Shown here: positions 26,219-63,400 of the stretch, one piece after another
Numbering within the stretch: the first letter of the stretch is position 1
Layout of the letters: the number at the start of each line of letters is the position of its first letter
Assembly (NCBI GenBank): GCA_964563755.1
Contig: CAZLYC010000001.1
Location: 203,548-267,547, forward strand
Origin: an uncultured Methanosarcinales archaeon
GTDB taxonomy: Archaea > Nanobdellota > Nanobdellia > Woesearchaeales > UBA11576
Direction: 5' to 3'
DNA: 64,000 nt
The notes under the pieces: generated by a model
Database searches by the model: none
Seen by the model: only the letters and a program-made list of their open reading frames with translations
Told to the model about the DNA's origin: nothing
Made by a program: the position numbers and the translations under genes

Positions 26219-26321
26219 CAGACGCCTCCACCAGCACCACTATATCTATTCCGATATATCGGTTACGATACTGATATTTAAAGGTTATGTTTGGCAATGA
26301 AATTCAAACTAAACTTAATTT

Positions 26322-26416: not shown

Positions 26417-26468
26417 TGTGCTTATTGTGTTTATTTATGCTTATATTCAATATTCACAAATAATATAA

Positions 26469-27125: not shown

Positions 27126-27136
27126 AAGGTAATTCT

Positions 27137-27922: not shown

Positions 27923-27981
27923 TTTTCTGTTTTTTATAAAATAGCTATATAATAAAATAAAAAGAAATATCTAAAAAAATT

Positions 27982-28671: not shown

Positions 28672-28709
28672 TTTTTATTACCTCCTTTGGAACCAAAGAT
28701 GATTATTAA

Positions 28710-29159
28710 TTATTGCCTTAATAACACCACTTTAGCCTCTCCAGTTATGTTTCTTACATGACCATACCCACCAGGTATTGTCGCATAAGCGTTAACAACC
28801 CTTAGTTCATTTGGTCCAATCACGAAATTATTGTCGCTGAATGTTACATATCCTCTTGCTTCACCGCTTAGGGTTATCTTAACCATGACAGGATAATCCT
28901 TGCTATTGTTCAAGATTATATTCTTTTCAGCCATACCTCCTGAACTTGGAATCTTCCCAAAGTGAAGATTTGGGTCGGCGTTAAAACCAACAGTTTTTCC
29001 AGCGACAGACTTAATCAGGATATCATATGTCTTCATGTAAGACACTTTGTAGAACGAATAATACAGAGTGACTGCACCAACACCTAAAAGGAAGACTATG
29101 AATATCAGTGCGATAACTGTCTTCATGCCGAATGTTTCATGTTTCTTCTTCATTTTCAT
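28710..29159 (-). CDS. Small membrane-anchored hypothetical protein
   Basis: N-terminal TM followed by a beta-rich domain. Confidence 0.4.
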   Translation of the reverse strand: MKMKKKHETFGMKTVIALIFIVFLLGVGAVTLYYSFYKVSYMKTYDILIKSVAGKTVGFNADPNLHFGKIPSSGGMAEKNIILNNSKDYPVMVKITLSGEARGYVTFSDNNFVIGPNELRVVNAYATIPGGYGHVRNITGEAKVVLLRQ

Positions 29160-29184
29160 GACACCTGCTTACATACTATAAAAA

Positions 29185-30360
29185 TCATTCTTTTTTCTTC
29201 CTATAAACTGCGAGGAAGATGTTTATCAGCGTCAAGAGTATGACTGCTATTATCAGTATAATGGTCAGCGAAGATGAACTGCTTAGGACACCTGGCTTTT
29301 CTTGCACTGCAGAAGCAGGGCCTATCTCTGGAGGAGTTGTAAGCTTTACCTTGCCATCCACAACCGCTTTCTTCTCAGCATAGAAAACTTCAATTTTTAC
29401 ATCATATTCCTTATCAGTAAATTTTGATGTATCTATGAAAGACTCTATATCCATAGTCTGCCATGGCTGAAGCTTCACAGTAGGGCTTTGCGTATTAACT
29501 TCATTTTCACCATCATAAATCTTTATCTTGGCGTATATATCAAGAGGATCATTCCAACCGCTTTCTACACTCACTATGAAACGTTTTATACCGCCAGTCT
29601 CAAGCTCTTTCGTATACCCTTTGATTTTGATGTTCAAATCACCTATCCTAAAGCTCGCATTGAGAACCGTTTCTATATTATCGCATCCTACGAATGCAGT
29701 AGCAGAATAGTTTCCAGGAAGAAGGCCTTTAGTGTCAAAAACACCTGTAAGACTCTCTTTGGAATTTGATGGGATGCTCTTTTCAGTCAGCGTGACAGTG
29801 CCAAGCCTTTCCTTGTTGATATTTAATACTTCTACCCTGCCAGATGCCTTGTTTATCTGTTCTAGACCAATATTCTCGATGTTCACAATAAAATTGGCAG
29901 GCGTATCCTGATTTGTATCCTTTGCAATGAAACTTATCAGGGGCATTATTCCGGGATGTAAAACTTTAAATGAATGCACTGCGCAGACGCTTGCCCTGCC
30001 GCAGACCATGCCTTGCTGCGGACACTCCTCTACAACACAAATCTTAGCGTAATGCTCTCCGGGAGGAGCTAAACTTGCTGGGAGATTTATTGTTCCAGAG
30101 ATTGTCTCCGCGGTGCCTTTTTCCATCCTGAACTCAGTTTTTGCGAAAGTTACGTACTGCTTTAGTTCGCCTTCTGCAAATACAGTATATAGATTATCAA
30201 CCCGTTGGTCTGAAAGAAGCACATAACTGAAAGGAATAGTGGTATCAGGGCTAAAAAGATGCTTTTCATTGAAATTAGCGCCAGAAAGACCTACAGCGTA
30301 AACAAAATTACTAGAAACTAGCACGATTAAACTTATAACTAGTAGATTAAAGATTTTCAT
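29185..30360 (-). CDS. Secreted protein with a cleavable signal peptide and a C-terminal TM anchor
   Basis: The N-terminus carries a signal-peptide-like hydrophobic stretch ending VYA. The C-terminus ends LTIILIIAVILLTLINIFLAVYRKKKE. Confidence 0.45.
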   Translation of the reverse strand: MKIFNLLVISLIVLVSSNFVYAVGLSGANFNEKHLFSPDTTIPFSYVLLSDQRVDNLYTVFAEGELKQYVTFAKTEFRMEKGTAETISGTINLPASLAPPGEHYAKICVVEECPQQGMVCGRASVCAVHSFKVLHPGIMPLISFIAKDTNQDTPANFIVNIENIGLEQINKASGRVEVLNINKERLGTVTLTEKSIPSNSKESLTGVFDTKGLLPGNYSATAFVGCDNIETVLNASFRIGDLNIKIKGYTKELETGGIKRFIVSVESGWNDPLDIYAKIKIYDGENEVNTQSPTVKLQPWQTMDIESFIDTSKFTDKEYDVKIEVFYAEKKAVVDGKVKLTTPPEIGPASAVQEKPGVLSSSSSLTIILIIAVILLTLINIFLAVYRKKKE

Positions 30361-30394
30361 TTTAAAAAAAAAGAAAAAAAGGAAAAAATTCCTT

Positions 30395-31096
30395 TTAGTA
30401 GTTCTGCGCTGCCGTGAATGTCACGAACGATGAGCAGTTTCCTGTAGGACCTTTCGGGACGTCCAATATGATTGTGACGTTGAATGTGTCCTTAGTATCT
30501 ACATCTGAAAGGTTCTCGCAGAGCAGTTCTGTGCTTGATGCGAATGGATGCGGGGTTGACAAATCTTGATTTGCCAAGTCGTTTGCTTCATTGTTGCATC
30601 CGCCAGTTGTACCGCCTACGTCAGGGTCTGTAATGACTTTTCCGCCCCAGTGGAAATAGTTGCCGTCTTCAAACGCGATAACTGTTGTTGAACCGTTGCA
30701 GCTACCAAAGAAGTTAGTTCCTGTTCTGGAAGCGTTTATAGTCACGTTGACCTGGATGTTTCCATCGTTCTCAACCTGGAAATCCCAAGGATCATATGTG
30801 CTTAATGCATACCAGCAGTCATGCTTTGGGTATGATGAGTTGAGCCTACACTCAATGGTATCAGCGATTGTCGCATTCCTATAGCCGGAACCGAAATCGA
30901 CCAACGCTTGGTTCAGTACTATTGAAAGCGTCGTGTTGATATAGACCTGCGCCTGACCGCTTGGAGCGACGGCTTGTCCTGTAACAACGTTTGTTATGGT
31001 AGTCACGCCCCTCATAGCGAAGAATGTGCCTGCCAAAGAAATAACTATAGCGACAACCAGTAATGTTGCCAATGTTTTATTAGATAGTTCATCCAT
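30395..31096 (-). CDS. Secreted sequon-rich protein (paralogue of 27982..28671)
   Basis: See 27982..28671. The 3' about 130 nt of the two genes are nearly identical at the DNA level. Confidence 0.55.
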   Translation of the reverse strand: MDELSNKTLATLLVVAIVISLAGTFFAMRGVTTITNVVTGQAVAPSGQAQVYINTTLSIVLNQALVDFGSGYRNATIADTIECRLNSSYPKHDCWYALSTYDPWDFQVENDGNIQVNVTINASRTGTNFFGSCNGSTTVIAFEDGNYFHWGGKVITDPDVGGTTGGCNNEANDLANQDLSTPHPFASSTELLCENLSDVDTKDTFNVTIILDVPKGPTGNCSSFVTFTAAQNY

Positions 31097-31111
31097 CTTT
31101 TCTAACCTCCT

Positions 31112-31348
31112 TTATTTGAGTATGCTTACGCCAACTCTGCCGCCAGTATTCTGGACAACAGGCTCTGTGGCCGTTGAAGGCCCTAAAATTCCTACACTGA
31201 CCTTTCCAGGTTCTTGATTATCGATCTCGACGTTCTTATAGATGGTTGTAGGCTGTGACAGTATTGTCCATGTTCCGACAACAGAAACGACGAGGGTGAG
31301 AACCAAGAGAACTAGAACTGTCCTTTTCGAAATATCATTGTTCTCCAT
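31112..31348 (-). CDS. Small signal-anchored protein (78 aa). Candidate minor pilin-like or anchoring subunit
   Basis: MENNDISKRTVLVLLVLTLVVSVV... First gene of the minus-strand surface operon. Confidence 0.35.
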   Translation of the reverse strand: MENNDISKRTVLVLLVLTLVVSVVGTWTILSQPTTIYKNVEIDNQEPGKVSVGILGPSTATEPVVQNTGGRVGVSILK

Positions 31349-31468
31349 CTTTCACTAACCTCCTTTTGGGACCGCCTTAAGAGGCTGTCTTACACTAAAA
31401 TACTATGATTAGAGGGCTTCTACCTCAAAATACTATTTAAATTTTTCGGTTGTAACCCCTGTTACGGA

Positions 31469-31481
31469 CTTACTGTGTAAG
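31469..31481. promoter_or_regulatory. CTTACTGTGTAAG palindrome (CTTAC-N3-GTAAG) in the promoter region of the surface-protein operon
   Basis: Same 13-bp palindrome family as the five copies at 45032..45204. Lies about 120 bp upstream of the 31348 start on the minus strand. Confidence 0.5.
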
Positions 31482-39019: not shown

Positions 39020-39021
39020 TT

Positions 39022-44521: not shown

Positions 44522-45031
44522 TCAATCACACTATTATTATATTAGTATTAAAAATTATCTAAATTAATATTATCATAATAATTTTAATTATTAAAATACT
44601 ATTAAAATAGTATTTAAGTATTATTATATAAAAAGCTTTTGTTTTTGCTTTGTGAAATCTTGTTCATTTCCTTCTTTACAGGATTTTTCTGTTTTGGGTA
44701 TTACCTGTTGTCAAATATTCTGAGTCTGCTAAACTATTAAGTTATTCTCGACGATACAAAAATATTTTTCCGTCGATAAAATTTGCAAATTATTTTTTAG
44801 CTGATATTTTTTGAAAAATTTCGCTTGTTTCTCTACGGATTTTTTTATTTTCAAGCGAACTTCACAAAACGGCTTTTCTTACTTGGGATCTTATGTTTTA
44901 GCCGTTGAACTTCTCGATCGCTGAGATTTTTTCCAAAATTAAGTTATTTTTAATATTATTTTATTACTATATAAATATTACTTTTAGTTTAAGATAATAT
45001 TATTATAATATTACATTTTTCTCGATTTTTA

Positions 45032-45204
45032 CTTACGTTGTAGGTATAAAATTGCTTATTTTCGAAATACATACATTGTAAGAAAAAGACTTACGTTGTA
45101 AGTTTTATGGAAAAGTTTATATATAAATGCTACTTACAGTGTGAGAATTTACTTGTTCTGAAAAAAACCAAAAGGTTTAAATACACCTATACTCACATTG
45201 TAAG
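45032..45204. promoter_or_regulatory. Five copies of the 13-bp palindrome CTYAC-N3-GTRAG upstream of the HTH and giant-protein genes
   Basis: Copies are CTTACGTTGTAGG (45032), aTACATTGTAAG (45071), CTTACGTTGTAAG (45090), CTTACAGTGTGAG (45133) and CTCACATTGTAAG (45193). Confidence 0.6.
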
Positions 45205-45249
45205 TAAATTTTTGAATATATTACAATATTTTATTTAAGTTATTCGCGG

Positions 45250-45480
45250 GTGTTTGGTATAGTTTCAAAAGAGGACGAAGTAGTAGAGATACCTAGTGCA
45301 ATATTCAGAGATAGAACTAGGGCCCCCCTCGAATCAATTTCTCAGTATCTTAAAGACGTGAAAGGCCTATCTTTCCACGAGATAGCAGTACTTCTAAACC
45401 GCGATGACCGAACAATCTGGACCTGCTACAGCAGAGCGAAAAAGAAACAGCAACAGCAGAATGAGGTGGTCAAGGAATAA
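45250..45480 (+). CDS. Small HTH protein (sigma-70 region-4/LuxR-like helix-turn-helix), GTG start
   Basis: LSFHEIAVLLNRDDRTIWTCYSRAKKK fits the r4-type HTH pattern (E.IA..L...D.T....RA.KK). Its stop overlaps the start of the giant ORF (TAATG). Confidence 0.4.
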   Translation: MFGIVSKEDEVVEIPSAIFRDRTRAPLESISQYLKDVKGLSFHEIAVLLNRDDRTIWTCYSRAKKKQQQQNEVVKE

Positions 45481-48400
45481 TGGCCACAGAAGACAGGATC
45501 AAGGAACTGCAGAGTCAGATAGCAGGACTTGATAGAGAGATTGAGCAAGAGAAAAAAGCAGAACAGAAGATAGCGCAGGAAATAGCAAGAAATGCAGAAA
45601 AAGAAAGAACCGCATCAACACAGAGAACAAACCAAGAAGCAAACAAAGAAAAATCATCAACAAGCATGGTGACATCAGTTGTCGTAATATCTCTCATACT
45701 CATACTCTCCGCGATACTTGTTCTTAAGACTCTAAGTCCTACGGGCTACTCAGTTCTTGCGCAAAACCAAACACCCACAGAACTGCTCCAGGTAGAGCAA
45801 CAGATGCTTGAAGACATGAACGTAGAAGAAGTCATAGCAATCCAAGAGGCAACAGAAAAGAACTACACAGAACCAATCAACGAGACACTGCCGGAAGAGC
45901 CGCAGAATGAGATCATAGAAGAACCAATACCTCAACTTCCAGAGCAGCAGGAGCAGAACGCAACACTGAATGAGACTGCGTCAGAAACAAACACAACAAT
46001 AAACGAGACAATGGCGCCAGTCAACGCGTCAGTCCCTGTTGTAAACGAGACAGTGAACATAACAAACGTGACACTCTACAACGAGACACAGCAAATCAAC
46101 ATAACTCTCAATGAGACAAACATAACAGATGAATTCAATATAACCCTGAACTTAACACTCAATGAAACCAACTTCACAGCAGAACTCAACATAACACTGA
46201 ACGAAACAAACCTCACAGAGCAGCTTAACATAACATTCAACGAGACTAACCTGACATCAGAGCTTAATGCCACACTTAACATAACTAACGAAACAGCAAT
46301 CATATCGGAAGAAAATCTGACAACAGAGACAGGATTACCAGAAGAGCTAATCCAGGGATACGCAAGAGTCGGTCAAGCAGTCAACTGGACAAGAAGAATA
46401 CTGGTCAACACAACAGGGGAGCTCAACATAACACTCAAGCTGCCGAAGCAGACATCAAAAGTAAAGATTTATGAGATAACTGGAGGAGTAGATCCAGCAC
46501 TGGTTGAAGAAGAAGGCCAGACAGAGATATCAGGAAGCACAGTTCTAAACGCTAGACAATGGTCAGACTGGCACGCAAAGATAGGCAAGACAAAGAAACT
46601 CCTCAAATCAGACAAGATAGGCATCAATAATCCTGTTCTTTTGACTCAGCAGTTAGAGGAATCAACAGATTCTGAAACCGACAGCCAAACACCCGCAATA
46701 ATTGGCTATTCTGCATTGAATGTAGAGTCCGGTGAAGGGGTCATGCTGAAATTCCTCAACTGGTTGAGTTCTTTATTCGGAATAACTGGCGCAGCGACAT
46801 TGGATACCGAATCGATACGCCTGACGAGACCGGATGACGGCGCAACAGTCGATAGGAACCTAAACCTGCTATACAGAGCAGCAAAAGACTTTGACTCCTG
46901 CACACTCTACCTTGACGAAAACAAGGTAAAGACAGACGAACTTGTGCTTGAAGGACTCAATTTCTTCCAGCTAAGTAGGATGAGTGATGGAATACACGAC
47001 TGGAAGATAGTCTGCCTCGACAAAAACCGAGAAGTCGAATCAGAGACAAGGACATTCACAGTAGGAACAACAACCATACCAACACCTATACAGCCAATAA
47101 TACCAATCCAGAACGAGACAACACCAGAGCAGAACACAACCCTGCCTGAGAATGAGAGTGTAGAACAGATAGAAGAAGAGACAGAAGAAGCAGAATACAA
47201 CTTTGTCGAAATAAACATAACAGACACAGTTGACGAAGCTCCAAAAGTCTATGAAATCGAGTACCAGACAGCAGGACCAGAGGCATCTGAGCAAGTGCAG
47301 AACCAGTACATAAAGGCAGTAACTGTAGGAAGCGACATAGAATTCAAGAATATAACTGCATACACAGAGCTGCCATGGGTGCCAGAGTGGCTAGTCAAAC
47401 TCTACTGGAGCAACAAAGGTTACGAACAAGTTGAAGATATCAAGCTTATAGACGCAAACCAAGACGGACTTTACGATGCGATGGAATGGACAGTCCCGCA
47501 CCTCTCGAACCAGACCTATGAAGTCAACCTCACTTATGAGATAACGCAGATAAACATAACACACGCAGAAAGGACACCAGAGAACGGAATAAAAGAGGAC
47601 ATAACAGGATATGTAGCAGATGCTGACGGCTCATCAATACAAGTAAACACAAAAGAAATCTATTTCGAGCTCCAGACTGACCTAGCAGAAAACGATACGA
47701 TATCATTCTTTGCAGAAGCTAACAAGAGAAACACGATATTCCTGAAAGATATGGATGGAAATATCATAAGCACACTCACACTAAGCGACAAGAACTGGTC
47801 ATGGTATAACATGACGATAACAGGACTAAGCCTTACGACAAACAAGTTCTACCTAAGTTCAGAATCGCTAGTCAAGTATGACTACATAACAGCATTCGAC
47901 AAGAAGCTCATAATACCAAAGAAGATGGTCGCGCCAAAGAACGTAAGCCTGGTGCTCGCGCAGGATGAAACAGTAGATGTAACCGAAATCAGACAGTTCA
48001 AGCCAGCAGAAGTGATTGTGCAGTCAACCACAGATCAGAACCAGACAGTCCCGATAGCAGAGTTCAGCGTAGAATTCCAGAGCGCAGAACTTGACATAGA
48101 CATGTCAGGACTTGTCGCAGAGACAGACCCTGTCGAAAGGAAATCAGTCATGCACATGGATGAATGGCCTGCAGAAATAAGCCACAACAAGACACTCTAC
48201 ATACCATCACACGGAAGAGGCTCGGTCTATATCTGCCCAGAAGCAAAGAACATAGATGAAGTCAACCAGTTCTGCCCAGGAATAGTGTACTTGAAGCTTG
48301 GAGAGAACAAGATAAACAAGACACAGGAACAGGCACTGCTTCAGATAGAGACAAACGAAACGCTCAACGAAACAATAAATGAGACAAACGGTACAGAGAT

Positions 48401-51400
48401 ACTGAACGAGACAACAGAGCTTAATGAGACGACAGAGCTCAACATGACTTCAAATGAGACAATCCTGGAGATTAATCAGACAATTGAGCAAGATATCAAT
48501 ATCACTGAAAATGTCACAACAGAATTCAACACGACAGAACAGGCAAGCAACGAAACAGCCTATAACGGCACAACAATAATTGTCACAGAAGTTGAAATCA
48601 ACGGCGTCATGTTCTACAAAGTATCCGGACTCACAGGCACAGGAGGCGGAGAGACAATAGAGGTGCTGAACATACACAGCTATCCTATCCTCGGAGGAGT
48701 CTGGACAGTAGACTTCATAACAAAAGGCACAGCGAACCTGACAATAACACCAATAGAGAATACCAGCTGGTCAGAGATGGACACAGACAACATCTTCACG
48801 GCAAACGACCTTGAATTCCTAGAGCTGAGCTGCGGAGAGGAGTCACTAAAAGACAACATCATAGCGATGACAGAGAACGGCACAGCGTTCGATTACGATG
48901 AACTTGCGAACAGCACAGTCAACGTGACGGCAATCATTATCCAGAACTACTCATGCAACCTGACAGGACACCTGAGCAACAAGGAACTCTTATCAGGACA
49001 TCACGCATTCTTCTTCCAGTTTGGAGAAGCGAACGCAACAGCATACAACTATGTCGCAACACTAAGTTGCAGAGTAGCAGCCGCATGTGAATACACAGAG
49101 GTATTAAGACTATCATCAATCACGAACGCCCACGTTGAACTCAGTAACTTCTCAAACTACGAGTACAGTATCTGCTGCAGGGACCTCGGAGGACAGAAGC
49201 TAAGGAACAACTGCTCTGACCCTAGAAATGTCACTATACTGAAAGCATCAGCAGAGACAAACGCCCACGTAGAGAAGATAACCCAGTCTAACTACAATGT
49301 GCCTGTATGCCTCAGTCATGAGAATCGCGACTTGAACATGACATGCGGATATGACAGCGTGAACAACTGCTCAGGATGGCAGGCCTGCGTAGCATCCATC
49401 AGCTCAACAGAGAGAGGAATGGATACAAACCTTGAAGTTGCAGAGTGCGGCTCGCCAAACAATTACACCACAAAGATATGCTGCAATATAGGCACAAACC
49501 AGACAGGACCCTCTCTGCCACCAGCACAGCCTAACCAGACAGGATGCGTAGGACCACATGACGACTTCACGCCTATAGACAACGTTACGCTATGCGCAGG
49601 AACATACTATACCAATGACGCAGCAGGAGACGGACTCATAAAAGTTGGAAGCAATAATGTCACACTGAACTGCAACGGAACCGTAATGGTAGGAAACGGA
49701 GCAGGAATAGGAATATACTCGAATTACAACGTGACGATAAATGGATGTGATGTAAGGAATTATGGGAAAGGAGTTGAGGTAAAAGGCTCCGATTTCCTCA
49801 ACGTAACTCTCAGCTGGAATTCAACAGGTGTGGATATCATTGATGGAATGGCTATAGACTCAGAAAATAATCTTGCTATAGCAGGAAGATGGTTGAACGG
49901 CAGCCAGAATGATTGGGGAATAGCCAGATACTATCCGAATGGAACACAGATTTGGAATAGATCTCTTGTATGGAATGCGACAGCTAGCGATCTGTTAATG
50001 GATATGACATATGATTCTGCAGGCAATCTGATTTCAGTCGGTTGGTGGTTTAACAACAGTTTTTATAGATGGGCCATAGCAAAATATGACTCTTCAGGCA
50101 ATCTATTATTCACCAGCTCTCCAATCTTCAATATCACAAAAAATGAAACCGCAACTGCAGTAGCAACGGATACCCTGAACAACATAATCGTTGTAGGAAG
50201 AAAAGAGTTACGTTCATGGTCTGAGTGGCAGATAGTCAAGTACAACTCAACCGGAAGCTTAATCTGGAATATAACACCTTTATGGAATAATGATTATGGA
50301 AATTTTCTGTATTCTGTAACTACCGATTCCCTTAACAACATAATTGTAGCTGGTGCATGTGTTTGGCCAGCCAAACAAAATTGGTGTGCTGCTAAATATT
50401 ACTCCAATGGAACACAAATATGGAACAGAACTTTCGTCTGGAATGCGACAGGTAGTCAGGAGTACGCAAAAGACGTCGTCATAGATTCAAATGACAATGT
50501 AATACTTGCTGGCAGATGGAGTAATAATGGTAATTATGACTGGAGCGTTATAAAACTCACATCTGACGGAACACAACTATGGAACAAATCATTAAAATGG
50601 GGGGACAGCGTAGATAGCGCTGAAAGCGTGGCTGTAGATTCTAATGATAATATACTTATTGCAGGAAACTGGCGAAGCGGAAGCAATAACGTGTGGGGTG
50701 TTGCAAAATATTATCCTAATGGCACACAAATAACCAACAGAAGTCTATTCTCAGGAAGCAATTCACTAACATATGCTAATGAAGTCGTTGTCGATTCGTC
50801 AGATAATATCATAGTCGCCGGTTCATGGGATAATGGCGGAGGAGACTGGAATTTTATGAAATTAACCCCTGACTTGACCGCTTCAGCATTCACACCCCGA
50901 GTGATATTGAACAATTCGTACATCAGGAATGCAGAAACAGGAGTGACTCTTGATGGAACTTCAAATTCACGAATAACCAACACAACCATAACTGGCACAA
51001 CAACCGGCCTCTACATGTCAGCAGCGAATGGCACAGTGATAACTAATCTTACAGTCTACAATAATACAAACGACATTTATGTTGATGGAACTGCTTCATC
51101 ATTTACGTATAATGCAACAAACATAACATTCGACTCTCCTGCAGGAACACTGCAGAATTACAGCAGATTAACAATATCTGATACTGTAGATGACTCAACA
51201 GCATACTCTTTATCTTGGGCATACATGTCATGGACACCTGTAAAGAGGAAGTCATTCGCACAGAAATTCATAGACCTGACTGCAGAAACAGGAATGCCGA
51301 ACATAGATTCAATGACATGGTACTGGCTCGATTCAGAACTCCCGACATATGATGAACTCAGGTTCCAGGTCTGGCAATTCGACCCAGTATATAGAGGAGG

Positions 51401-54400
51401 GCACACAGAAGGAAACTGGACAAGGATAAATTATCAGCTAGACACAGCCAATAACCTTATAAGACTAGCAAACTTGATTCCACAGAGCATATATGGCATC
51501 CTAGACTCGGGCAATGAAGCACCGAACATGACGGGAGTATCACTGACATCTCAGCTTGGAAAGAACTACACAAATGAGAGTCTAACTGCTCTCGCATTAG
51601 GACTCAGCGACCTAGATTCTGACAACGTCACGCTGACATACAACTGGTTCGTAGATGACAAATCAATAGCTGTCCTCAACATGCCGTTCGAAGCAAGAAG
51701 GGATGAGAACGAGAGCAACTGGACAAGGGAGTACTCGCCATACATGAATGATGGAAGAGTGCAGGGACCAAGATGGAACAAGACGGCTGGATGGAATAAT
51801 ACAGGAGCGTACGAGTTTGATGGCGTTAATGATTATATCTTAGTCTCAAACTTTGATTATGATATCTTAAGGCAGGGAAAGGAGACAAGCAGCTGGACGC
51901 TTGAAGCACGTGTTAAACCTGCAGGTTCACAAAATTCATCCGAGAAAATGATTGTAGGACGCGCAGGATGCCATGGCGGCATATACGCCTTCCCCAGTGA
52001 TTTCAGATTCACCATAAAAACTACTGATTGTTGGACTGGATCAAAGAGTATTACATACACTCCGCCTGACATGAATAGTTGGTATCATCTAGTCGCAGTG
52101 TATGATAATCGTATCATGTCATTCTATGCAAACGGTGTCCTGGTGGGGACAGACATATTCAATGCAACAATGTTCAACTATAACACTAATCTTTACATCG
52201 GAGGTATAGGCACCTATGTTTTCAACGGTACTGTGGATTCTGTGAGGATATATGATCGTGCATTATCCGCAGACCAGGTAAAGGCACTCTATGAGAACAA
52301 GACATACCTACTCACAGAGGCAGAGACACGAGGCAGAGAAACATGGAAGGTTCAGATAACACCTAACGACGGCTGGGAAGACGGACCTGCTGTCATGAGC
52401 AACTCACTCTATGTGTATGAACTCGCGTTCAATAATACAAAGCTTAACGCTTCACGACCTACCAATTATACCAACGAAAGCTTGACAGTATACACTGATT
52501 ACCTGAATGCGACAAACAGGACAATAGTCAACTGGTTTGTGGACAATTTCTCGATGGCTGTGCTTAATATGCCGTTCGACGGACTGAGCCCGAAGCATCC
52601 AAGGACAGAAAATGCACTGGTCGGATCATGGTGGTTTGAGGGAGACGCGAATGACAAGAGCGGAAAAGGCATGGATGGAGTAGTTACTGGTTCAACTGTT
52701 GGTGATGGCAAGGTTGACAAGGCATATTTGTTCAATGGCGTGGATCAATCCATCAATATATCTAATTACGATTCTCTTGTTAATAATGTAACAAATCAGA
52801 TGACGATAGGACTTTGGGTCAAGCCTGTCGGATATCCTGCAGTAGGATACGCTGAAGCATTACGAAAAGAGATAAGTTACCATTTCTCATATAATGCAGC
52901 TGTACCTGGATGGGATATAGGATTCAAAAATGAAACAAACGGACAACAATTCCCGGGACATATCGATACATCTCAAGTGCCTCTAAATAAGTGGACTCAT
53001 CTATTGCTGACATATGATGGCTCAACAATATCTGTTTATGTCAATGGTGTGCTTTCCAAGAGCGCAAATTTAGTTTTCAAAATAGGTTCAAACAACAACG
53101 ATAACCTGTACATAGGTAATTATGGCAGTTCAGAAGAATCAGGACTCCTAAGCAGGTACTTCAATGGCAGCATTGACGAAGTCTACATCTGGAACAGGTC
53201 GTTATCTGCAACTGAGATAAGAACCATCTACGAGGAAGGCCTGAACAATTACGAAGATGCCAAGGACTATTCTACTAACGGCAATACTGGAACTGTCGTG
53301 AATGCAACGTGGAACAGGACTGGCGGGCCGAATAACACAGGAGCATATACTTTCGATGGTGTCGATGATTATATCATAATAGATCATGATGGCTCAACAG
53401 ATATGTTTGATTCTATATCTGTTGAGGCTTGGGTAAAGGTAAGTTCTTTGGGAACAGAACAGTATCCATCTATAGCAGGTAAACAATACGGCGGATTATA
53501 TCCTAGCAATAATCCCTATGCGCTTTACATACAGAACTCTGATGATACGTTGAGGTTTGGCAAGAGGAATATCGATGGTATCTGGGGCGGCTCCGCATAC
53601 ACTAGTGTGACTCCTTATATCGGTGAATGGATTCATGTTGTGGGTATGCTTGACGGAACGAATTTAAGGCTTTATGTCAATGGTGAAAAAGTAAGTGAAG
53701 TGTCTACCCGCATAGGCACACAGAATGACGACAGTCCTGTACTGATTGGAGCAGATGATAATGATGGCAACGGAGTTGCCGACAATTTCTTCAACGGCAC
53801 GATAGACATTGTGAGGATATACTACAGGGCATTATCTGCAGAGCAGATCACTGCTTTGTACGCGAACAGGACTTATTTGATACCCTCTTCAGAGACCCGC
53901 GGCGGTGAGACCTGGCAGGCATTGCTCACGCCGCAGGATAGTTATGAGGACGGCACTGCCGTGTACAGCAACCCGATATATATCTATGAGTTGGCGCTGC
54001 TGAACACGAAACTGAATGCGTCAAGCGTAACGAATTATACTAATCAGAATCTTACTGTCTACACAACGTTTGCAAATGGCACAAATAACACAATAGTCAA
54101 CTGGTTCGTTGATAACAGTTCGATGGCGGTCCTCAACATGCCGTTTGAAGCTTTGAGTCAGAAGCACCACGAGATAGATGATTTGATGGTTTGCGCTTTG
54201 CAGTTCGAAGGAGACGCGACTGACAAGAGCGGAAAAGGTAATACTGGAATAGTGAACGGCGCAGTAATAGCTGACGCAAAGATAAAGAAGGGCTATTCTT
54301 TCGATGGTATTAATGATTATATCAATATCTCAAATTCACAAAGCCTGCAGAACTACACATCATTCACGGTCGCATTATGGTTCAAGTATGCAGGAAGAGG

Positions 54401-57400
54401 CCCTCAGAACAAGCAATACACTACAATAATCAACAAGAACGCGATAGGCAACGGAAATCTGGACCCATATCATATCTGGGTTGAAAATTCAAGTCAGGAA
54501 TTGATTGTGCGTTTAGGAAGCGGCACTTCGGCAATCTATATGAGTCCATTGATAAGTGTAAATGACAACAAATTCCACCATGTGACTGTTGTTTTCGATG
54601 ATGCTCTTGATAAATACTACATGTATTTTGATGGACGCAGAGCAGCAACTAATAGGGTGTCGTCAAGCTGGAAACCAACAACAAATACTGACTCATTGAT
54701 GATAGGAAACTGGCAACCGTACGGAAGCTACTTCAATGGAACAATAGATGAAGTCATGATATGGAACCGGTCATTATCCGCTACAGAAGCTAGAGAATTA
54801 TATGATGAAGGCCTGAACAACTATGAAGATGCGAAGGACTATTCGAGCAATGGAAATACTGGCAATGTTGTCAATGCCACGTTGAATAAGACGGGAGGAA
54901 TAAACAACACGGGAGCATACGAATTCAATGGTGTTGGTTCATACATAGATATCAATAATTCCCTGTCTTTGCAAGACATAACAGAATCAAGTTTCACATT
55001 CGAATCATGGTACTATCCATCCTCACTTCCATCCACAAATCCCACACATGACCAGCATGCACTAGTATGCAAGAGGGGATACCACACTGCCCTGAGGTTC
55101 AACAGCGGCGGGTCATTTAGATTCAGCATCTGGAACTCATTAAATACTGCTTTTACTGTCACATCCAGTGCATATCCTGCAAATAACTGGTATCATGTAG
55201 TCGGAGTCGCAGACGAATCCACGAAGACCATAACACTTTACGTTAACGGACAGAAGTTCGGCCCAATACACTATACGGGCATTCTTAGAGATTATGGAAA
55301 TGTGAGCACAAGGATAGGATTATGCAATGATGTAGGCCTAGCTTATGACAACATGGCTAACGGTACTATTGATGGTGTGAAAATATATGACAGAGCTTTA
55401 TCACAAGATCAGGTAATCTCTTCGTATGAAGGTAGGCTTAATGTCACTGTCGAAGCAGAGACTCGCGGCGGAGAGACATGGTATGCTGAGCTTACACCTC
55501 AGGATGGCTATGAAGACGGACCAATAGTAACTAGCAACTCAATATACATCTATGACTTGGCACTGCTGAACACCAAGCTTAATGCAACACGTGTTACTAA
55601 TTACACTAATGAGAATCTAACTGTTTACACAACGTTTGCGAACGGCACTAACATGACGACAGTCAACTGGTTCGTTGACAACACGTCGATGGCTGTGTTG
55701 AACATGCCATTTGAGCCGTTAACCAAAAAGCACCACAACATAGAAGAATCGATGGTCGGCGCATGGTGGTTTGAAGAAAATTCAAGAGACAGTAGCGGCA
55801 AAGGAAATCACGGCACTGTTGATGGCCCCGCAATAACTACTGTGGGTAAAGTAGGCAAAGCTTACACATTTAACGGCCTATGGGACACAATACCAACAAC
55901 CAACAGCGCCTCTTTGAACATAACAAGAGCAATAACAATAAGCGTTTGGGTCAAGCCAAATACGATAGCAACAAACCCTGTACTTATTGACAAAGGATAT
56001 TCAACATCATATTACCTGCAGCTACTTTCAGCAGGCCAGATAGAATTCGGCATGGACTACCCAGAAATATCTGTCCAAAGCGACACAGGAATTGTTCTTG
56101 CAGGAGAATGGTCTCATATCGTTGGAACATACGACTCGAGCGTATCAGTAAATAATCTTAAGATATATAAAAACGGTAAACTCGTGAATCAGTTCACAAG
56201 AACTGGAACAGGCACAGGAAATTCCGAGATACTCACAATAGGATCTAACATTTATGCAGGAGAGTACTTCAATGGTACGATTGATGAAGTGGCCATATGG
56301 AACAGGTCACTTTCTGCAGCAGAAGTCGATCATCTATATGCGGACAGCCTTGACAACAACGATGGAGCCAAGGATTACTCGACTAATGGAAACAACGCAA
56401 ACATATCAGGAGCAATATGGACGTCAAGCGAAGGGTGGAATAACACAGGTACTTACCAGTTCGACGGAATAGACGATTACCTCGAAGTTGCGGATTCTGC
56501 AAGCCTCAAACCGACAGAGGCTGTATCAATAGAAGTCTGGGTGAAGCCAGGAAGACAGAATTTCACACAGGAAAGATATGTTGTATTAGATTATCAGGCA
56601 GAGAAGGACGTTTCAGTAATGAGTTATGTCGATAATAACAACATCACATATGGCGCAAACAGCATGCTTCTCGACAGCGGACAGATAGGCACAATACTCG
56701 CTTCACAGATTGCCGTCGGAGATGTGATAAACGGAACAGGACCTTTTGAGGCGGCATTTATAGGAGATGGAGGAGACATGCCTGTCCCTGCAAGTTTCGC
56801 AGGAAAAGAATTCGCGTATAACGTGACAAGGAATCCACCGCAGAACATATCAGTCTGCGCGCCATTCGAGGCAGCGAATGTCTATCTCTACAACAGTTCA
56901 AGAAGCCAGGTGGCAACATTCAGCTTGACTAAAGGCAGCTGCAACAAGTTCAGTTATAGCTTCGCTGATTCATGGTTCTATATGAATGCAACAGGACGCG
57001 TAGTTGCGCAAGCGATGAACACATTTTCAGATGCGTTTGTAATGTATCCTCTTTCAGATGACCTGTGGGGGATTGCTTCTGGCGCAGGGTATGTCGCAAT
57101 AGCATCTAATGGAGTCAATGTAACATATTATAATTCAGATTCTACAACAGCAACAGCAGTGTATAACTATGGAAATTCATTCTCACCGCTTGGAGGAGCA
57201 GGACAAGGCTCAGGTGTAGCAACCCATATAGTGGCCAACCAGCCTGCAATAGGCGTAATAAGTTCAGCTGACGCAGATGGTGGAGAGGCTGCGACATATT
57301 ACCCGACAAAAGAACTAAGCTATGTGTTCGGCATACCACAGTATGCACAGTACTTAGCATTCGCGGCAACACAACCTAACACTGTGTGCTACATGAAGTA

Positions 57401-60400
57401 CGCTGATGGAAGGACTTCTCCATATATACATGCTAACGGAACAGTCTTTACAAAGATATCTGGAAGAAATCTCAATCCGCCTTACCCGAACAAGCTATAT
57501 GTTGGCAACGAGTCAGCAGCTCCTGACCAGAGCATAACAAATGCAACGATGTTCATCTGTAACAATCTCGTGTACGCTTATTATGAGGACAATTCTACTG
57601 CTGACGAGACAAACATGTGGGGTCTAAAGGACCCAGGAATAGTCTTCAAGCCAGGAGCATACGGACTTGCGTTCAGTCCGTCAGGAAAGATAGATGGATA
57701 CGTGAACGGCAAAGGAATTTCTGCAGATGGCACATTTGACCAGTGGCAGCACGTAGTTATGACATATGATGGCGCATACATAAGCATATACGTGAACGGT
57801 CAGCTCAAAGATAGGGACAGATTACAGGGAAGCATATTGCAGAGCACAAGCACGCTCACGATAGGAAAGTATGGCAATGAATACTTCAACGGTTCAATCG
57901 ACGGCCTGAAGATATACGACAGAGCGTTATCTGCGGACCAGATACTGGCAGCTTACCAGAACAGGACTGACAAGATATCGGATGCTGAGACAAGAGGCGG
58001 AGAGACATGGGTTTCAATCCTCACACCGAATGATGGATTTGAGGATGGATCGAGTGTCACAAGCAACGACCTGTTCGTATACAACATAGGTGCTGAAAAC
58101 ATAACGCTCGATTCTTCATTAGGAACAGGAACCATACTTGAGAACCTCACTGTAAAATATAACCTGACGAACGGTTCGACAATTTCGAACATAAACTGGT
58201 TCGTCAACGGAACATCCATTACATTGCTAAACATGCCATTTGACGCATTGACTGCCAAGCATCATGAAATCGAGAGTTCAGTCACCGCAGCATGGCAATT
58301 TGAGGGAGACGCTACAGACAAGAGCTCAAAAGCGCAGCATGGAACAGTCTACGGAGCGACACTATCTGACGGAAAAGTGAAGAACGCATACAGCTTCGAT
58401 GGCAATGATGATTACATAAACGCAGGAACTGTAGCAACAGATTTCACAAACGGAATGACGATAGCAGTTTGGGTATACTATAATTCACTGCCTTCCTGGT
58501 CAAGGATAATTGACTTCGGCCAGAACTCTGGTGATGACAATATACTGATCGCGAACTGGGGCACGACAGACGACCTCGTCTTTGACATATGGAACGGAGC
58601 GACAGATGGAAAAATCACAGCATATGATGCAATCGATATTGGAAAATGGATGCACCTTGCCTTTACAGTAGACTCATCCGGAAACGGCGCCATATACAAG
58701 AACGGCAAGGCAATAAAGACAGGAACCACCAACGTTCCCCCTGCAGTGTCAAGGGACAAGGCGTACATAGGAAAATCAAACTGGGCAGCTGACGCCAACT
58801 TCAGCGGAAATATCGACGAGCTTTATATGTGGAACCGCTCGCTGAACGCTTCAGAAATAAGAGGTGTGTACGAAGAAGGACTTAACAATTATGAAGATAC
58901 TAAAGATTACTCAGGAAACGCAAACACAGGATATGTGAATGGCAGCGCCTGGAACAGCACAGGCGGATTCAATAATACCGGAGCATACCAATTCGATGGA
59001 GTAAATGATTATATCGATCTCAGGAGCTATTTCCCAGATGTCAATATTTCATTCTCTATACTTTTCTGGGTAAAGCCGGGCGCATCACAGGTCACCTATG
59101 CAGACATATTTGGAAACCATGGTGGCTACAAAGGAATGGTCATGCAGCAGGACGCTTCAAACACTAATAGTTTCGGTTGGGGTTATGGCAACGGAACCGC
59201 TTGGGCACCAGGATTGCCTGCAGTACAGCTTATTGCGGACGCATGGCAGCACATAGCAATAGTCAAGAACACGACAAATTGCACACTCTACCTGAATTCA
59301 ATATTCAACGTATCAATTGATTGTTCATCACCATATGTCCCTAATAGCGGAAGAAACATGTGGATAGGCCAGGGATACCAGGGAGGACCAACTGAAAGAT
59401 TCTTCAACGGCAGCATAGACAACTTCATGATATTCAACAGGTCGCTTACATCATCGCAGATACTTGCACTCTACCAGAACAGGACCAACTTCCTCAGCTT
59501 CAACGAAACAAGAGGAGGAGACATGTGGTATGCGGAAGTCACACCAAACGATGGATATGAAGATGGAAGGACGCAGACGACTGGCAACGTGACAATAAAG
59601 GGATGCGCAGTGCCTTATGACGGGTTGGTCTTGACATCGAGCGTTGAACTGTGTCCAGGAACATTCTATGTGAATGATGCTGCAGCCAACGGACTCATTA
59701 ACATATCTGCAAGTAACATAAACATAACATGCTTAGGAACAACTCTTTACGGAAACAACGTAGGGTATGCTTTCATAAACAGTCCGAGTGCAGCCTATAA
59801 TAATATTACAATACAAGGATGCCGGATAGTCAACTATACAAGAGCATATACCTCATCACCTAACTTTGGTGTGAAAAACTTCACTTTCTTCAACAACACT
59901 GTAGTAAATTTCAGCAGTTACGCATTATACTCGCAAGTCTCAGGAGGCCAAAACTGGAATATATCAGGAAACAGATTCTATGGTGTACCAACGAGCGGAT
60001 CATCATATGGTGCATATCTATATTACAATTCTTTCTCCACTGTAGAGAACAATCTGTTCTATTCAAACTATAACGGACTTACAATATACAATTCAGACAA
60101 CACGACAATAAGGAACAACACGTTCAACCAATCAGCAAACGTGGGAGTGTACACTACAGGAATTAATAGTGCGGACTTCCTCACTAATGTAACTATAGAA
60201 TATAATAATTTTACAGCAAGCAGCGGAACTCAACAGATACATATCCTGAACTATGTGCAGAACATAACTATAAGAAACAACAGCTTTAATGCAGGCAGTT
60301 CATACAATATATACGCCACCGGTGCCGGTAACGGAGTCAATGCACATAAGTACATAAACATATCCGACAACAATTTCATTAATGTTGCGTCATCTCAAAT

Positions 60401-63400
60401 ATATTTCTCATACAGCTACAACAGCACTGTTAGGGGGAATAATTTTTCAACTACAACAGGAACGCCTACAGCTTCATTATACGTAACAAGTGATGTGGAT
60501 TACCTTACCGTGTATGACAATAATTTCTTCAGGCAAGGATCTTATGCAATCTATTGCAATGCGGCGGTAGGAGCTGGTGTCAGCTCTTTCCTGAATATAA
60601 CAAATAACCTAATCAACCTGTCCACAAGCCGCGGCATATATCTGTATGACTACTGTGATAATGGGGTGATAACAGGCAATAGTATAAACTCATCAGCAAC
60701 TGCGAACATATATCTATATACAACTGGAACTGTTAACAATACAATATATAATAACTCATTCTATGGCGTACCTGCTGACTATGCATATGTAACAACCACC
60801 CTTACAGGAAACGCATTCAGCAAGAGGATAAACGGCGTCTGGGTAGGAAACTTCTGGGCTGACATAAACTCCAGCAGCATAAGGATATACGACTCGAACC
60901 ATGACGGATACGGAGATACAGGAGGAGAATATCCTTATAATAGCACCAATAGGGCTAATGTATATGGGGATGTAAATGATTACGGTCCAATACTGCCACC
61001 TGATACTGATCAGGATGGAGCGTACGACAGGATAGATTGCGCACCGAACAATGTTACACTGGTTCCTCCATACGATGAGCTCAAAGTCAACACTTCAATG
61101 ACGTTCTGCTCCGGAAGCTATCGCGAAAGAGATGCGGGAGCATTTGGAACAATAAAGATAACGAACAGCAACATAAACCTCTCTTGCAACGGAACAGCAA
61201 TAATAGGAGAAAATACCGGATACGGAATAGTCAACTCATACTCAAATGTTACGATACAGGGATGCAATGTCGGGAATTACAGCACTGCTGCTTTGGCTGG
61301 TGGATTGTGGAATAGGACTTTTGTGTGGAATGCAACAGGCAATGATGTTCCGTATGGTGTTGCTGTAGATTCTTTGGATAACACCTATGTGGCAGGTTAC
61401 TGGTATAATGGTTCCCAATCTGATTGGAGTTTTGTCAAGTATGATTCATATGGAAATTATGTATTCAACAGGACTTTTGTCTGGAATGCAACAGGCAACG
61501 ATTCCGCTCGTGCTGTAGCAATCGATATTTATGGCAACATTTATGTCACTGGCAGTTGGCGTAATGACAGCCAGGATGATTGGGGCTTGGTCAAATATAA
61601 TTCAACTGGAGATTATGTCTGGAACAGAAGTTTTGTCTGGAATTCAACTGGTTCAGATGTAGCTTATGATGTTGCTGTTGATTATTCTGGTAATGTTTAC
61701 GTTACTGGTATTTGGAGAAATGGAACTCAGGGTGACTGGGGACTTGTCAAATGGGATGCTAACGGAAACTATTTGTGGAACATAAGCAAGGTGTGGAGTC
61801 CGACCAATGATGATACTGCTTGGGGCGTTGCAACTGATAGCCAAGGAAATGTAATCGTTGCAGGAGCTTGGCGAAATGGCTCAAGCCATGATTGGGGAAT
61901 CGTTAAATATAGCACTGATGGAGTCCTGCTCTGGAACAGCAGCAGTGGCTGGAGCGGTACACAAACTGATGAAGCATGGGATGTCGCCGTTGATAATCAA
62001 GATAATATTCTGGCTTCTGGAGAATGGAGTGATGCTTTTGGCGAGTATTGGGGTGTCGCCAAGTTCAGAAGTTCTGATGGCTTGTTATTATGGAACAAGA
62101 GTGTGGCGTGGAATCCAACATTCAACGGAATTGCTCTTGGTGTAGATTCTGACAGCAAAAATAACGTATTAATCGGCGGTTACTGTTATGTTGGTTCTTC
62201 TGAGGAATGGTGTGCAGCAAAATTCAGTCCTGATGGTATTATACTATGGAACAGGAGCGTGGTATGGAACGCTACAGGTGACGATTATATTTGGGATGTT
62301 GCTGTTGATAGCTCAGATAATCTGTTGGCTGCAGGTCACTGGAAACGAGGAAATAGAAATACTTGGGGTATCGCTAAGTTGAGCGGTGCAGGTGACATCA
62401 TAACTTCAAATTCCATTTTCATTAATGACACATTTGCAAATAGCACAAAAGGAATAGAATTATCCGGACGCATAACATATACAAACATAACTAATTCAAC
62501 ATTATGGAGCAATACCTATGGAGCTCACCTTGGCAATGAATCTGCAAGAACAACAATAGCACACAGTACAGCAAATGCAAGCACATCAAGAGGAATATAC
62601 GTAGACAAGGCAAATGATACTAGGCTAATCAATGTAACTTTGTATAATACTACAATAGGAATGTATGTAGAGGCAGGACAAAATCCAATCTGGCTGAACA
62701 TAACAGATGCAAGCTTCAGGCCAAATAATGGACTGCTCAATAATTATACAAAACTAAATGTATCGGACATAGTGAATGCCTCAAGCGCATACTCGATAAC
62801 ATGGGCGACAAACACGACGCCATTATCTGAACGCATGCCTCCGTTCAGGTATAAGTTCGTCGACATAACAACACAAGCTGGAGCGACATCGATAGACAGA
62901 GTTACGTGGAGCTGGCTTGACTCAGAACTGACAGGATATGACGAAACAAATTTCACGCTCTGGAAATATACAACGTACTGGGTCAATATAAGTTCACAGC
63001 TGGATACTGCATCAAACACTTTGACTGTCTACAACCTTAATCCGCAGAGCATATATGGAATACTGCAGGATGGAAACGCAGCTCCGACAATAACTAGCGT
63101 GATAGTCAACTCAACTTATGGAATGAATTACACGGACGAGAACATAACTGCTTATGCTTTCGGCATGAGCGACCCGAATAATGACAACATAACGCTCATC
63201 TACAACTGGTTCGTGAACAACAGATCTCTGGCAGTCTTGAATATGCCGTTCGAGGCAGATAACGGTAATGAATATGTCATAGCGAGGGACTTCTCGGATA
63301 TTGGAGAAGATGGAACAGTATATGGAGCGGTGTGGAACAGGACAGGAGGAATAAACAACAGCGGAGCTTACCAGTTCGACGGTGTAAATGACTACATAGA

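What the first reader, a model, noticed from the sequence alone, without database searches (positions are those of the whole stretch)
45032..45204. Five copies of a 13-bp palindrome CTTAC-N3-GTAAG upstream of the HTH/giant gene pair, and a sixth copy in the promoter of the distant surface-protein operon (31469..31481)
The copies are spaced 30 to 50 bp apart in the AT-rich region immediately upstream of the small HTH gene and the giant ORF. A perfect copy (gaCTTACTGTGTAAGtc) sits about 120 bp upstream of the start of the minus-strand secreted-protein operon 14 kb away. No other copy was noticed in the window. This looks like a dedicated operator set defining a cell-surface regulon, possibly bound by the adjacent HTH or by the AbrB-like protein.
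Basis: seen in the sequence. Interest (0 to 1): 0.7.

Follow-up and report, generated by a model that had tools for sequence, protein, structure and literature searches.

The report
Conserved operator array before giant-gene regulator
The repeated palindrome is real: it is the conserved DNA target that sits in front of a small, uncharacterised DNA-binding protein gene fused in an operon with giant cell-surface protein genes in many tiny symbiotic (DPANN) archaea, so it most likely is the switch that controls how much of these huge adhesin-like proteins is made.

Summary
The five clustered copies exist, but only 45090 is a perfect CTTAC-N3-GTAAG; the other four have one mismatch. A sixth, exact copy lies at 31469.

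A weight matrix built only from other genomes gives a 17-bp palindrome, TACTTACAWTGTAAGTA. It ranks these six positions as the top six of the 64-kb window.

In 80 loci from DPANN archaea (Woesearchaeota/Nanoarchaeota MAGs) that encode homologues of the 76-aa HTH, the motif is about 160-fold enriched in the 600 bp upstream of the HTH gene. It occurs in 46 of 53 loci with a real upstream spacer and in 1 of 27 where the HTH is operon-internal. It sits 6-10 bp downstream of a canonical TATA box.

Proteins with one canonical and one diverged HTH repeat have asymmetric, single-orientation sites instead.

The HTH folds like sigma-70 region 4 but is not a sigma factor. Its stop codon overlaps the start of the giant LamG/beta-helix gene.

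Best reading: auto-regulatory operators of this HTH, probably repressive.

The AbrB-like protein is an unlikely binder. The sixth site is plausible but is not conserved in four orthologous promoters.

No binding or transcript data exist.

The parts
45032..45044 (.). Site 1, ttaCTTACGTTGTAGGtat (one mismatch). Upstream auxiliary operator with no TATA box directly before it.
   Evidence: PWM score 23.0
45070..45082 (.). Site 2, ataCATACATTGTAAGaaa (one mismatch)
   Evidence: PWM score 20.1
45090..45102 (.). Site 3, agaCTTACGTTGTAAGttt (perfect core), 20 bp from site 2
   Evidence: PWM score 17.6
45116..45123 (+). Distal TATA box TTTATATA, preceded by the purine-rich BRE-like GAAAAG. It ends 9 bp before the core of site 4.
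   Evidence: The same TATA-to-site phasing is seen across loci.
45133..45145 (.). Site 4, ctaCTTACAGTGTGAGaat (one mismatch). It lies between the distal TATA box and the inferred transcription start at about 45146-45149.
   Evidence: (score 18.4)
45176..45183 (+). Proximal TATA box TTTAAATA, preceded by AAAAGG. It ends 8 bp before the core of site 5.
   Evidence: The block is conserved in L005, L006 and L009.
45192..45204 (.). Site 5, ataCTCACATTGTAAGtaa (one mismatch), the best match to the family matrix. It lies between the proximal TATA box and the inferred transcription start at about 45206-45209.
   Evidence: (score 26.1)
45250..45480 (+). Gene for the 76-aa single-domain HTH protein (GTG start, sigma-70 region-4-like fold). 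This is the proposed binder of the sites.
   Evidence: The start matches homologues beginning (M/V)FGI.
45480..64000 (+). Giant ORF of more than 6173 aa that runs off the window. It has an N-terminal membrane helix, at least 9 LamG domains, beta-helix and propeller repeats. Its ATG overlaps the HTH stop codon (TAATG).
   Evidence: Stop/start overlap is conserved in other loci.
31469..31481 (.). Sixth site, ggaCTTACTGTGTAAGtca. The core is exact, but the flanks and centre fit the family consensus poorly. It lies 27 bp upstream of the BRE/TATA of the p78 operon promoter.
   Evidence: (score 11.2). It is not conserved in orthologous promoters.
31434..31447 (-). BRE/TATA (GAAAAATTTAAATA) of the p78 operon promoter
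   Evidence: It is conserved in L011 and L086-L090.
27982..31348 (-). Operon of five small membrane-anchored or secreted proteins (78, 233, 391, 149 and 229 aa). p233 has a beta-rich domain with weak resemblance to donor-strand pilus/fibre subunits. This operon is a possible second target.
44981..44993 (.). Possible decayed copy of the TATA+site unit (CTTTTAGTTTAAG, 3 mismatches). The surrounding 27 nt are 78% identical to the site-4 unit.
   Evidence: family D5; PWM score 0.1

Best explanation
The palindromes are operators for the 76-aa HTH protein encoded just downstream.

The protein is a stand-alone domain with a sigma-70 region-4-like fold. It belongs to a large uncharacterised family found mainly in Woesearchaeota/Nanoarchaeota-type (DPANN) archaea. 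Two HTH units, either a homodimer or, in relatives, two repeats in one chain, would read the two TACTTACA half-sites of the 17-bp palindrome.

In the window, sites 4 and 5 each lie 8-9 bp downstream of a canonical BRE/TATA element. They would cover roughly -17 to -3 of two tandem promoters. Sites 1-3 lie further upstream and would add cooperative occupancy.

The HTH gene is the first cistron, and its stop codon overlaps the start codon of the giant surface-protein gene. The regulator is therefore made in step with every transcript of the giant gene and feeds back on initiation.

The position between TATA and the transcription start predicts repression, by the rule known from archaeal regulators such as TrmB/TrmBL1, SurR, NrpR, Phr and MDR1 (my own knowledge, not tested here).

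Shown: motif conservation, positional phasing, protein/site covariation, and gene coupling. Inferred: physical binding, dimerisation, transcription start positions, and the sign of regulation.
For: (1) The motif (up to 1 mismatch) occurs 138 times in 55.4 kb upstream of HTH homologues and 8 times in 511.6 kb elsewhere in the same 80 loci, about 160-fold enrichment.

(2) It is present in 46 of 53 loci with at least 85 bp of non-coding DNA upstream. It is present in 1 of 27 loci where the HTH directly follows another gene (Fisher p=1e-13).

(3) Spacer sequences, copy number (1-9) and GC content differ between loci while the 17-mer is kept. The conservation is therefore not simple shared ancestry of the whole region.

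(4) Covariation: loci encoding only canonical repeats have 151 palindromic and 2 asymmetric sites. The 7 loci encoding one canonical plus one diverged repeat (NRNxxxLAVTYRN) have 2 palindromic and 21 asymmetric CTTACAwRATAT sites, all on the gene strand.

(5) The 3' end of TTTA[AT]ATA lies 6-10 bp before the site core in 30 of 47 cases. The window's two HTH promoters are 2 of only 5 BRE+TATA consensus matches in 64 kb.

(6) The AF2 model (pLDDT 88.7) has ECF sigma region-4 domains as its top structural matches, including sigmaE region 4 bound to -35 DNA.

(7) The HTH stop codon overlaps the start of the downstream large ORF in most loci. The downstream ORFs are mostly giant.
Against: There is no binding assay, no transcript 5' ends and no expression data.

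The covariation rests on essentially one clade, so on one or two evolutionary events.

Site spacings (38, 20, 43, 59 bp here; mode 40-48 bp across loci) are not clean multiples of the helical repeat.

The tight TATA-to-site distance could equally suit a factor that cooperates with TBP/TFB rather than blocks RNA polymerase.

Another regulator encoded elsewhere in these genomes cannot be formally excluded.

Foldseek E-values for the 76-aa model are weak (about 1e-2). The Pfam Sigma70_r4_2 score (24.0 bits) is below the gathering cut-off of 25.7.
Confidence: 0.75

Rival explanations
1. The binder is the same, but the sign and mechanism are the opposite. The sigma-4-like domain would act as a positive, promoter-specific factor. 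Bound at a fixed distance downstream of TATA, or at upstream sites, it would recruit or stabilise TBP/TFB/RNA polymerase and switch the giant-gene operon on.
For: The TATA-to-site distance is strictly 6-10 bp in diverged genomes. The fold is that of a promoter-recognition domain. Many sites lie upstream of the TATA box, as do window sites 1-3 and the 31469 site 27 bp upstream of BRE/TATA. By the archaeal rule, that upstream position is the activating one.
Against: A protein sitting on about -17 to -3 normally clashes with RNA polymerase. The sites are palindromic and occur in arrays that lack TATA boxes in some loci, such as L011, which looks like classical operators. There is no region-2 or other polymerase-binding part in the 76 aa.
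Confidence: 0.15
2. The AbrB-like 59-aa protein (44342-44521, minus strand), or another factor not encoded next to the sites, binds the palindromes. On this view the HTH gene is merely a regulated target.
For: The gene is divergent from the array in the window and in L005, L006 and L009.
Against: AbrB-like homologues are absent from the neighbourhood of the other 40-plus arrays, whereas an HTH homologue is always present. Site symmetry tracks HTH repeat composition. There is no AbrB/SpoVT Pfam match. The sites lie 510 bp or more from the AbrB-like start codon.
Confidence: 0.03
3. The repeats are not transcriptional operators. They would be iterons of a replication origin, recombination or inversion sites, a restriction-modification target, or hairpins in an RNA.
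For: The sites lie in a long AT-rich divergent spacer at a strand switch, where cumulative GC skew reaches its minimum. They are palindromic.
Against: - One contig (CAYOQS) carries more than one HTH locus, and other genomes also have several.
- The association is with the HTH gene, and no orc1/cdc6 gene flanks the spacer.
- The phasing to TATA boxes is strict.
- The asymmetric variant cannot form a hairpin.
- There is no Rfam match.
- The motif is not spread through coding DNA.
Confidence: 0.03
4. For the sixth copy only: the 31469 site is a chance or lineage-specific occurrence without regulatory function.
For: - Its PWM score is only 11.2, with poor flanks and centre.
- Shuffled windows give 0.28 positions at or above that score.
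- The orthologous p78 promoters in L086 (syntenic), L088, L089 and L090 have the conserved BRE/TATA and Shine-Dalgarno sequence but no site.
Against: The exact 10/10 core is expected only 0.06 times per window. It falls in a 192-bp promoter spacer of precisely the operon that sits divergently next to the array in L011, L013, L036, L061 and L083.
Confidence: 0.45

Closest known systems
Archaeal repressors whose operators overlap the core promoter downstream of TATA (MDR1, NrpR, Phr, LrpA, TrmB/TrmBL1, SurR), from my own knowledge of the literature
   Same: A palindromic operator placed between the TATA box and the transcription start. The regulator's own gene is under the operator. Extra upstream sites are present.
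   Different: The protein fold and family differ: a 76-aa sigma-4-like domain with no ligand-binding part, not a winged-helix, Lrp or TrmB protein. Tandem arrays of up to nine sites are common, often as repeated TATA+operator units. The regulator is translationally coupled to a giant gene.
Region 4 of ECF sigma factors (e.g. E. coli sigmaE region 4 on -35 DNA, PDB 2h27; SigR region 4, 5fgm)
   Same: These are the best structural matches of the AF2 model. There are weak sequence hits to Sigma70_r4_2 and ECF sigma models.
   Different: There is no region 2, so it is not a sigma factor. Archaea use TBP/TFB. The sites are two-fold symmetric and lie downstream of TATA, unlike a single -35 element read by a monomer within a holoenzyme.
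GerE / LuxR-type stand-alone HTH proteins of bacteria (about 74 aa, bind as dimers), from my own knowledge
   Same: A protein that consists of little more than one four-helix HTH domain related to sigma region 4. It would act as a dimer on paired sites.
   Different: There is no Pfam GerE/LuxR hit at E<=0.01. The host is archaeal. Family members carry 1-4 tandem repeats in one chain.
'Sigma-70-like' genes reported as prevalent and unexplained in Woesearchaeota (Castelle et al. 2021, PMC8204110)
   Same: Same lineage and same weak sigma-70 annotation. That paper notes that no anti-sigma factors were found and the mechanism is unclear.
   Different: I could not check that their family fam00359 is this family. 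If it is, the present data argue that these proteins are operator-binding regulators rather than sigma factors.

Membership tests
Sigma-70 family sigma factor (ECF type) | Region 4 domain scoring above the curated family threshold | tested here: not met
   Pfam Sigma70_r4_2 scores 24.0 bits against a cut-off of 25.7. NCBIfam sigma models score 11-19 bits against cut-offs of 130-323.
Sigma-70 family sigma factor (ECF type) | Region 2 (core-polymerase binding and -10 recognition) in the same protein | tested here: not met
   The protein is 76 aa with a single helical domain, helices at 16-19, 26-36, 42-49 and 53-75.
Sigma-70 family sigma factor (ECF type) | Region-4-like three-dimensional fold | tested here: met
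   The top Foldseek PDB matches are all ECF sigma region 4 domains, with TM-scores of about 0.53-0.68 normalised to the query. E-values are weak (about 1e-2) because the domain is short.
LuxR/GerE-type HTH | Match to the GerE/LuxR C-terminal HTH profile | tested here: not met
   No such Pfam family appears at E<=0.01. RcsB appears only at rank 48 of the fold search.
   No AbrB/SpoVT hit in Pfam at E<=10 or in NCBIfam at E<=1. The fold was not predicted.
Auto-regulated transcription factor with a promoter-overlapping operator | Conserved sites upstream of the factor's own gene across diverged genomes | tested here: met
   About 160-fold enrichment. Sites are present in 46 of 53 loci with a promoter spacer.
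Auto-regulated transcription factor with a promoter-overlapping operator | Site placed between TATA and the transcription start | tested here: inconclusive
   The TATA-to-site distance of 6-10 bp is shown. The transcription starts are inferred, not mapped.
Auto-regulated transcription factor with a promoter-overlapping operator | Specific physical binding of the factor to the site | not testable with these tools
   Only indirect support is available: site symmetry covaries with the repeat composition of the protein.
Archaeal replication origin (ORB repeats next to orc1/cdc6) | Adjacent orc1/cdc6 gene and one or few such loci per genome | tested here: not met
   The genes flanking the spacer are the 59-aa gene and the HTH gene. 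One contig (CAYOQS) carries two HTH loci, and other genomes carry two or more.

The most novel reading that the evidence does not exclude
A bacterial-type promoter-recognition module, a free sigma-70 region-4 domain, has been built into the archaeal TBP/TFB initiation system. It would act as a dedicated promoter-specificity factor, docking at a fixed 6-10 bp downstream of TATA to license transcription of giant host-attachment genes. The several HTH-giant cassettes per genome, all sharing one operator, would then cross-regulate each other.
Probability: 0.12. Interest if true: 0.85.

Novelty: new member of a known kind. Interest (0 to 1): 0.6.

Why it matters
Giant LamG/beta-helix surface proteins are the main candidates for how DPANN archaea attach to their hosts. 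Nothing is known about their control, and the organisms are uncultured.

This finding pairs a concrete 17-bp operator with a concrete 76-aa protein. The pair is conserved across roughly 2,000 sequence clusters of the family. That gives a directly testable handle, by EMSA, DAP-seq or in vitro transcription, that does not need cultivation.

It also offers an explanation for the 'sigma-70-like' genes noted as puzzling in Woesearchaeota (PMC8204110). On this reading they are operator-binding regulators, not sigma factors.

The switch from palindromic to asymmetric sites in proteins with one diverged repeat is a natural experiment on how HTH repeat composition sets operator symmetry.

Tried and rejected
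- **p391 scan of metagenome contigs.** The scan with the 391-aa operon protein returned a single short contig and was useless for footprinting the sixth site.
- **Look-up of P0002.** It was not on record.
- **Cluster look-up for an organism name.** No accession or name came back. The window's genome is known only as a 303-kb NCBI contig and as a Logan contig from run SRR14492172.
- **PDB sequence search with the HTH profile.** Nothing significant.
- **Rfam scan of the spacer.** No match.
- **Two-copy pattern in viral contigs.** No match, so there is no sign of a viral origin.
- **Literature search for the 13-mers.** They occur in no held paper; the hits for shorter 11-mers were unrelated.
- **Sigma-70-type promoter scan.** Irrelevant for an archaeon.
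- **ARAGORN on the window and on L055.** No tRNA found.
- **The 60504 hit.** Rejected as chance.
- **Strict helical phasing of the sites.** Considered and not supported.

Full report
**Observation**

Region 45032-45204 contains five matches to CTTAC-N3-GTAAG. One is perfect (45090). Four have one mismatch each (45032, 45070, 45133, 45192). A perfect copy lies at 31469-31481.

With up to one mismatch the window holds 7 hits against 1.3 expected. None of 100 shuffles reached 7. The seventh hit, at 60504 inside the giant ORF, is chance (see the matrix result below).

Centre-to-centre spacings in the cluster are 38, 20, 43 and 59 bp.

**Genes**

- The cluster lies in the 728-bp spacer between a 59-aa minus-strand gene (44342-44521) and a 76-aa plus-strand gene (GTG at 45250, ending at 45480).
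- The 76-aa gene's TAA stop overlaps the ATG of an ORF that runs off the window after more than 6173 codons.
- The giant protein has an N-terminal membrane helix, at least nine LamG domains, and beta-helix and propeller repeats.
- The 76-aa protein has one sub-threshold Pfam hit, Sigma70_r4_2, at 24.0 bits against a cut-off of 25.7.
- Its AF2 model is confident (pLDDT 88.7). Its best PDB matches are all region 4 domains of ECF sigma factors.
- It has no region 2, so it is not a sigma factor.
- The 59-aa protein gave no AbrB/SpoVT hit.

**Where the window comes from**

The closest relatives of the window's proteins are in MAGs labelled Woesearchaeota or Nanoarchaeota. Some are labelled 'uncultured Methanosarcinales', a label that looks doubtful for a 774-kb chromosome.

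The HTH family is large. A profile search finds 2,171 50%-identity clusters at E<=1e-3. Members carry one to four tandem HTH repeats.

**Comparative test**

I fetched 80 loci encoding HTH homologues from species-representative genomes.

It occurs 8 times in the remaining 511.6 kb.
- Sites are present in 46 of 53 loci that have at least 85 bp of non-coding DNA before the HTH gene. They are present in 1 of 27 loci where the HTH directly follows another gene and so has no promoter of its own.
- Copy number per locus is 1-9. Spacers between copies are not alignable, and host GC content varies. This is conservation by selection.
- The pooled sites define a 17-bp palindrome, TACTTACAWTGTAAGTA.
The next best scores 3.4, and 60504 scores -0.3.

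**Who binds**

The HTH gene is the only constant neighbour of the arrays. Homologues of the 59-aa gene are adjacent only in the three closest relatives, L005, L006 and L009.

Six of the seven spacer-bearing loci without the palindrome encode proteins in which a canonical repeat (LNRDDRTIWTxYxRAKKK) is joined to a diverged one (NRNxxxLAVTYRNAKKK). The seventh, L044, encodes a single canonical repeat.

In five of those six loci, and in L084, which encodes the same kind of protein, the upstream sites keep the CTTACA half. The other half is replaced by wRATAT. L076 carries no sites at all.

All 21 such sites point the same way as the gene. Canonical-only loci have 151 palindromic and 2 asymmetric sites.

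This is the pattern expected if each HTH unit reads one half-site. It comes from essentially one clade, so it counts as one or two evolutionary events.

**Position in the promoter**

A canonical archaeal TATA box, TTTA[AT]ATA, ends 6-10 bp before the site core in 30 of 47 cases. It is often preceded by cGAAA.

In the window, a purine-rich BRE followed by this TATA box occurs only five times in 64 kb. Two of the five are at 45116-45123 and 45176-45183, which lie 9 and 8 bp before sites 4 and 5.

These TATA+site blocks are the conserved islands when the window is aligned with L005, L006 and L009.

With a transcription start about 23-26 nt after the TATA box (general archaeal knowledge, not mapped here), sites 4 and 5 cover about -17 to -3 of two tandem promoters. 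Sites 1-3 lie upstream.

**Coupling**

The HTH stop codon overlaps the start of the next gene in most loci: as ATGA in about 38 of 80, and as TAATG here. The next gene is usually giant.

**Mechanism proposed**

The HTH dimer occupies the operators and feeds back on the promoters that drive its own gene and the giant gene. In relatives a two-repeat chain would do the same job.

Placement downstream of TATA predicts repression. The fixed TATA distance, and the many sites upstream of TATA, leave activation open. I give that alternative about 15%.

**The sixth site**

It lies 27 bp upstream of the BRE/TATA of a five-gene operon of small membrane-anchored proteins. One of them, p233, models confidently (pLDDT 84.7). 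It weakly resembles donor-strand pilus or fibre subunits such as Csu pili, Pyrodictium cannulae and TasA-like fibres, all with E>1e-3.

For a real link: homologues of this operon lie divergently right beside the array in L011, L013, L036, L061 and L083, or inside HTH-giant operons in L016, L037, L046 and L051.

Against: four orthologous stand-alone promoters keep the BRE/TATA and the Shine-Dalgarno sequence but have no site. These include the syntenic one in the CAYOQS genome. A score of 11 arises 0.28 times per shuffled window.

I rate the site as functional at about even odds.

**Rivals rejected**

- An origin of replication, recombination sites or RNA hairpins do not fit several observations. 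One contig (CAYOQS) carries more than one HTH locus, the phasing to TATA boxes is strict, the asymmetric variant cannot form a hairpin, and there is no Rfam hit.
- There is no sign of the arrays in viral contigs.

**Novelty**

The 13-mers occur in no held paper. Searches on DPANN regulators and giant proteins found no description of this pair.

Castelle et al. 2021 noted unexplained sigma-70-like genes in Woesearchaeota. I could not verify that these are the same family.

The kind of system, an auto-regulated HTH with promoter-overlapping operators, is well known. The family, its operator and its link to giant genes are new.

Noticed in passing
window 44525-44620 and 44936-45013: Two extremely AT-rich blocks in the same spacer are imperfect direct and inverted repeats of each other (73-89% over 19-49 nt). 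They flank the central part of the spacer. Their function is unknown.
   Followed up: no
L055 2330-2346: A perfect 17-mer (gTACTTACATTGTAAGTAt, score 28.5) occurs in a GC-rich Woesearchaeota contig 1.6 kb from the HTH array. It lies just after a tRNA-like 3' end (GGGGGTTCAAATCCCCC) that ARAGORN did not call, and it is not upstream of any obvious gene.
   Followed up: partly
proteins P0227-P0375; L052, L060, L070, L076, L080, L084: The HTH family includes chains with 2, 3 and 4 tandem repeats. It also includes apparent C-terminal fusions to proteins of 800-5900 aa. These could be true fusions or read-through gene calls.
   Followed up: partly
window 32371-44345 (minus strand): An operon of four 713-1140-aa proteins. 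The one scanned (39022-42204) has LVIVD repeats and a C-terminal Peptidase_S74 (endosialidase intramolecular chaperone) domain. Peptidase_S74 or LVIVD proteins also sit next to the p78 operon in L086 and L088.
   Followed up: partly
window 25847-31348; L086, L088, L089, L090: The block p78-p233-p391-p149, then two opposite-strand genes of about 210-290 aa, then a small gene (PadR or HTH_24 hits in L086 and L088) and an ABC-transporter gene, is syntenic across four other Woesearchaeota/Nanoarchaeota genomes. The operon promoter (cGAAAnnTTTAAATA ... AAAGGAGGTTAG ... ATGGAG) is also highly conserved.
   Followed up: partly
window 45241-45255; L005, L006, L009: The 12 nt TCGCGGGTGTTT around the GTG start of the HTH gene are invariant among the four close relatives, although the rest of the leader is not alignable. 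This may be a ribosome-binding or start-context element.
   Followed up: no
window 45221-45233: ATTACAATATTTT lies 17 bp before the GTG start. It aligns with the third TATA+site unit of L005 and L006 and looks like a decayed site that keeps only the left half.
   Followed up: partly
L061 (OZ246410.1) and other loci labelled 'uncultured Methanosarcinales': Many loci carrying this DPANN-type module come from MAGs labelled Methanosarcinales, including a 774-kb 'chromosome'. The taxonomic label looks unreliable.
   Followed up: no
window 20000-49000: Cumulative GC skew falls from about 16 kb to a minimum near 45-49 kb and then rises. The minimum coincides with the switch of coding strand at the divergent spacer. 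This is probably a gene-strand effect rather than an origin.
   Followed up: no
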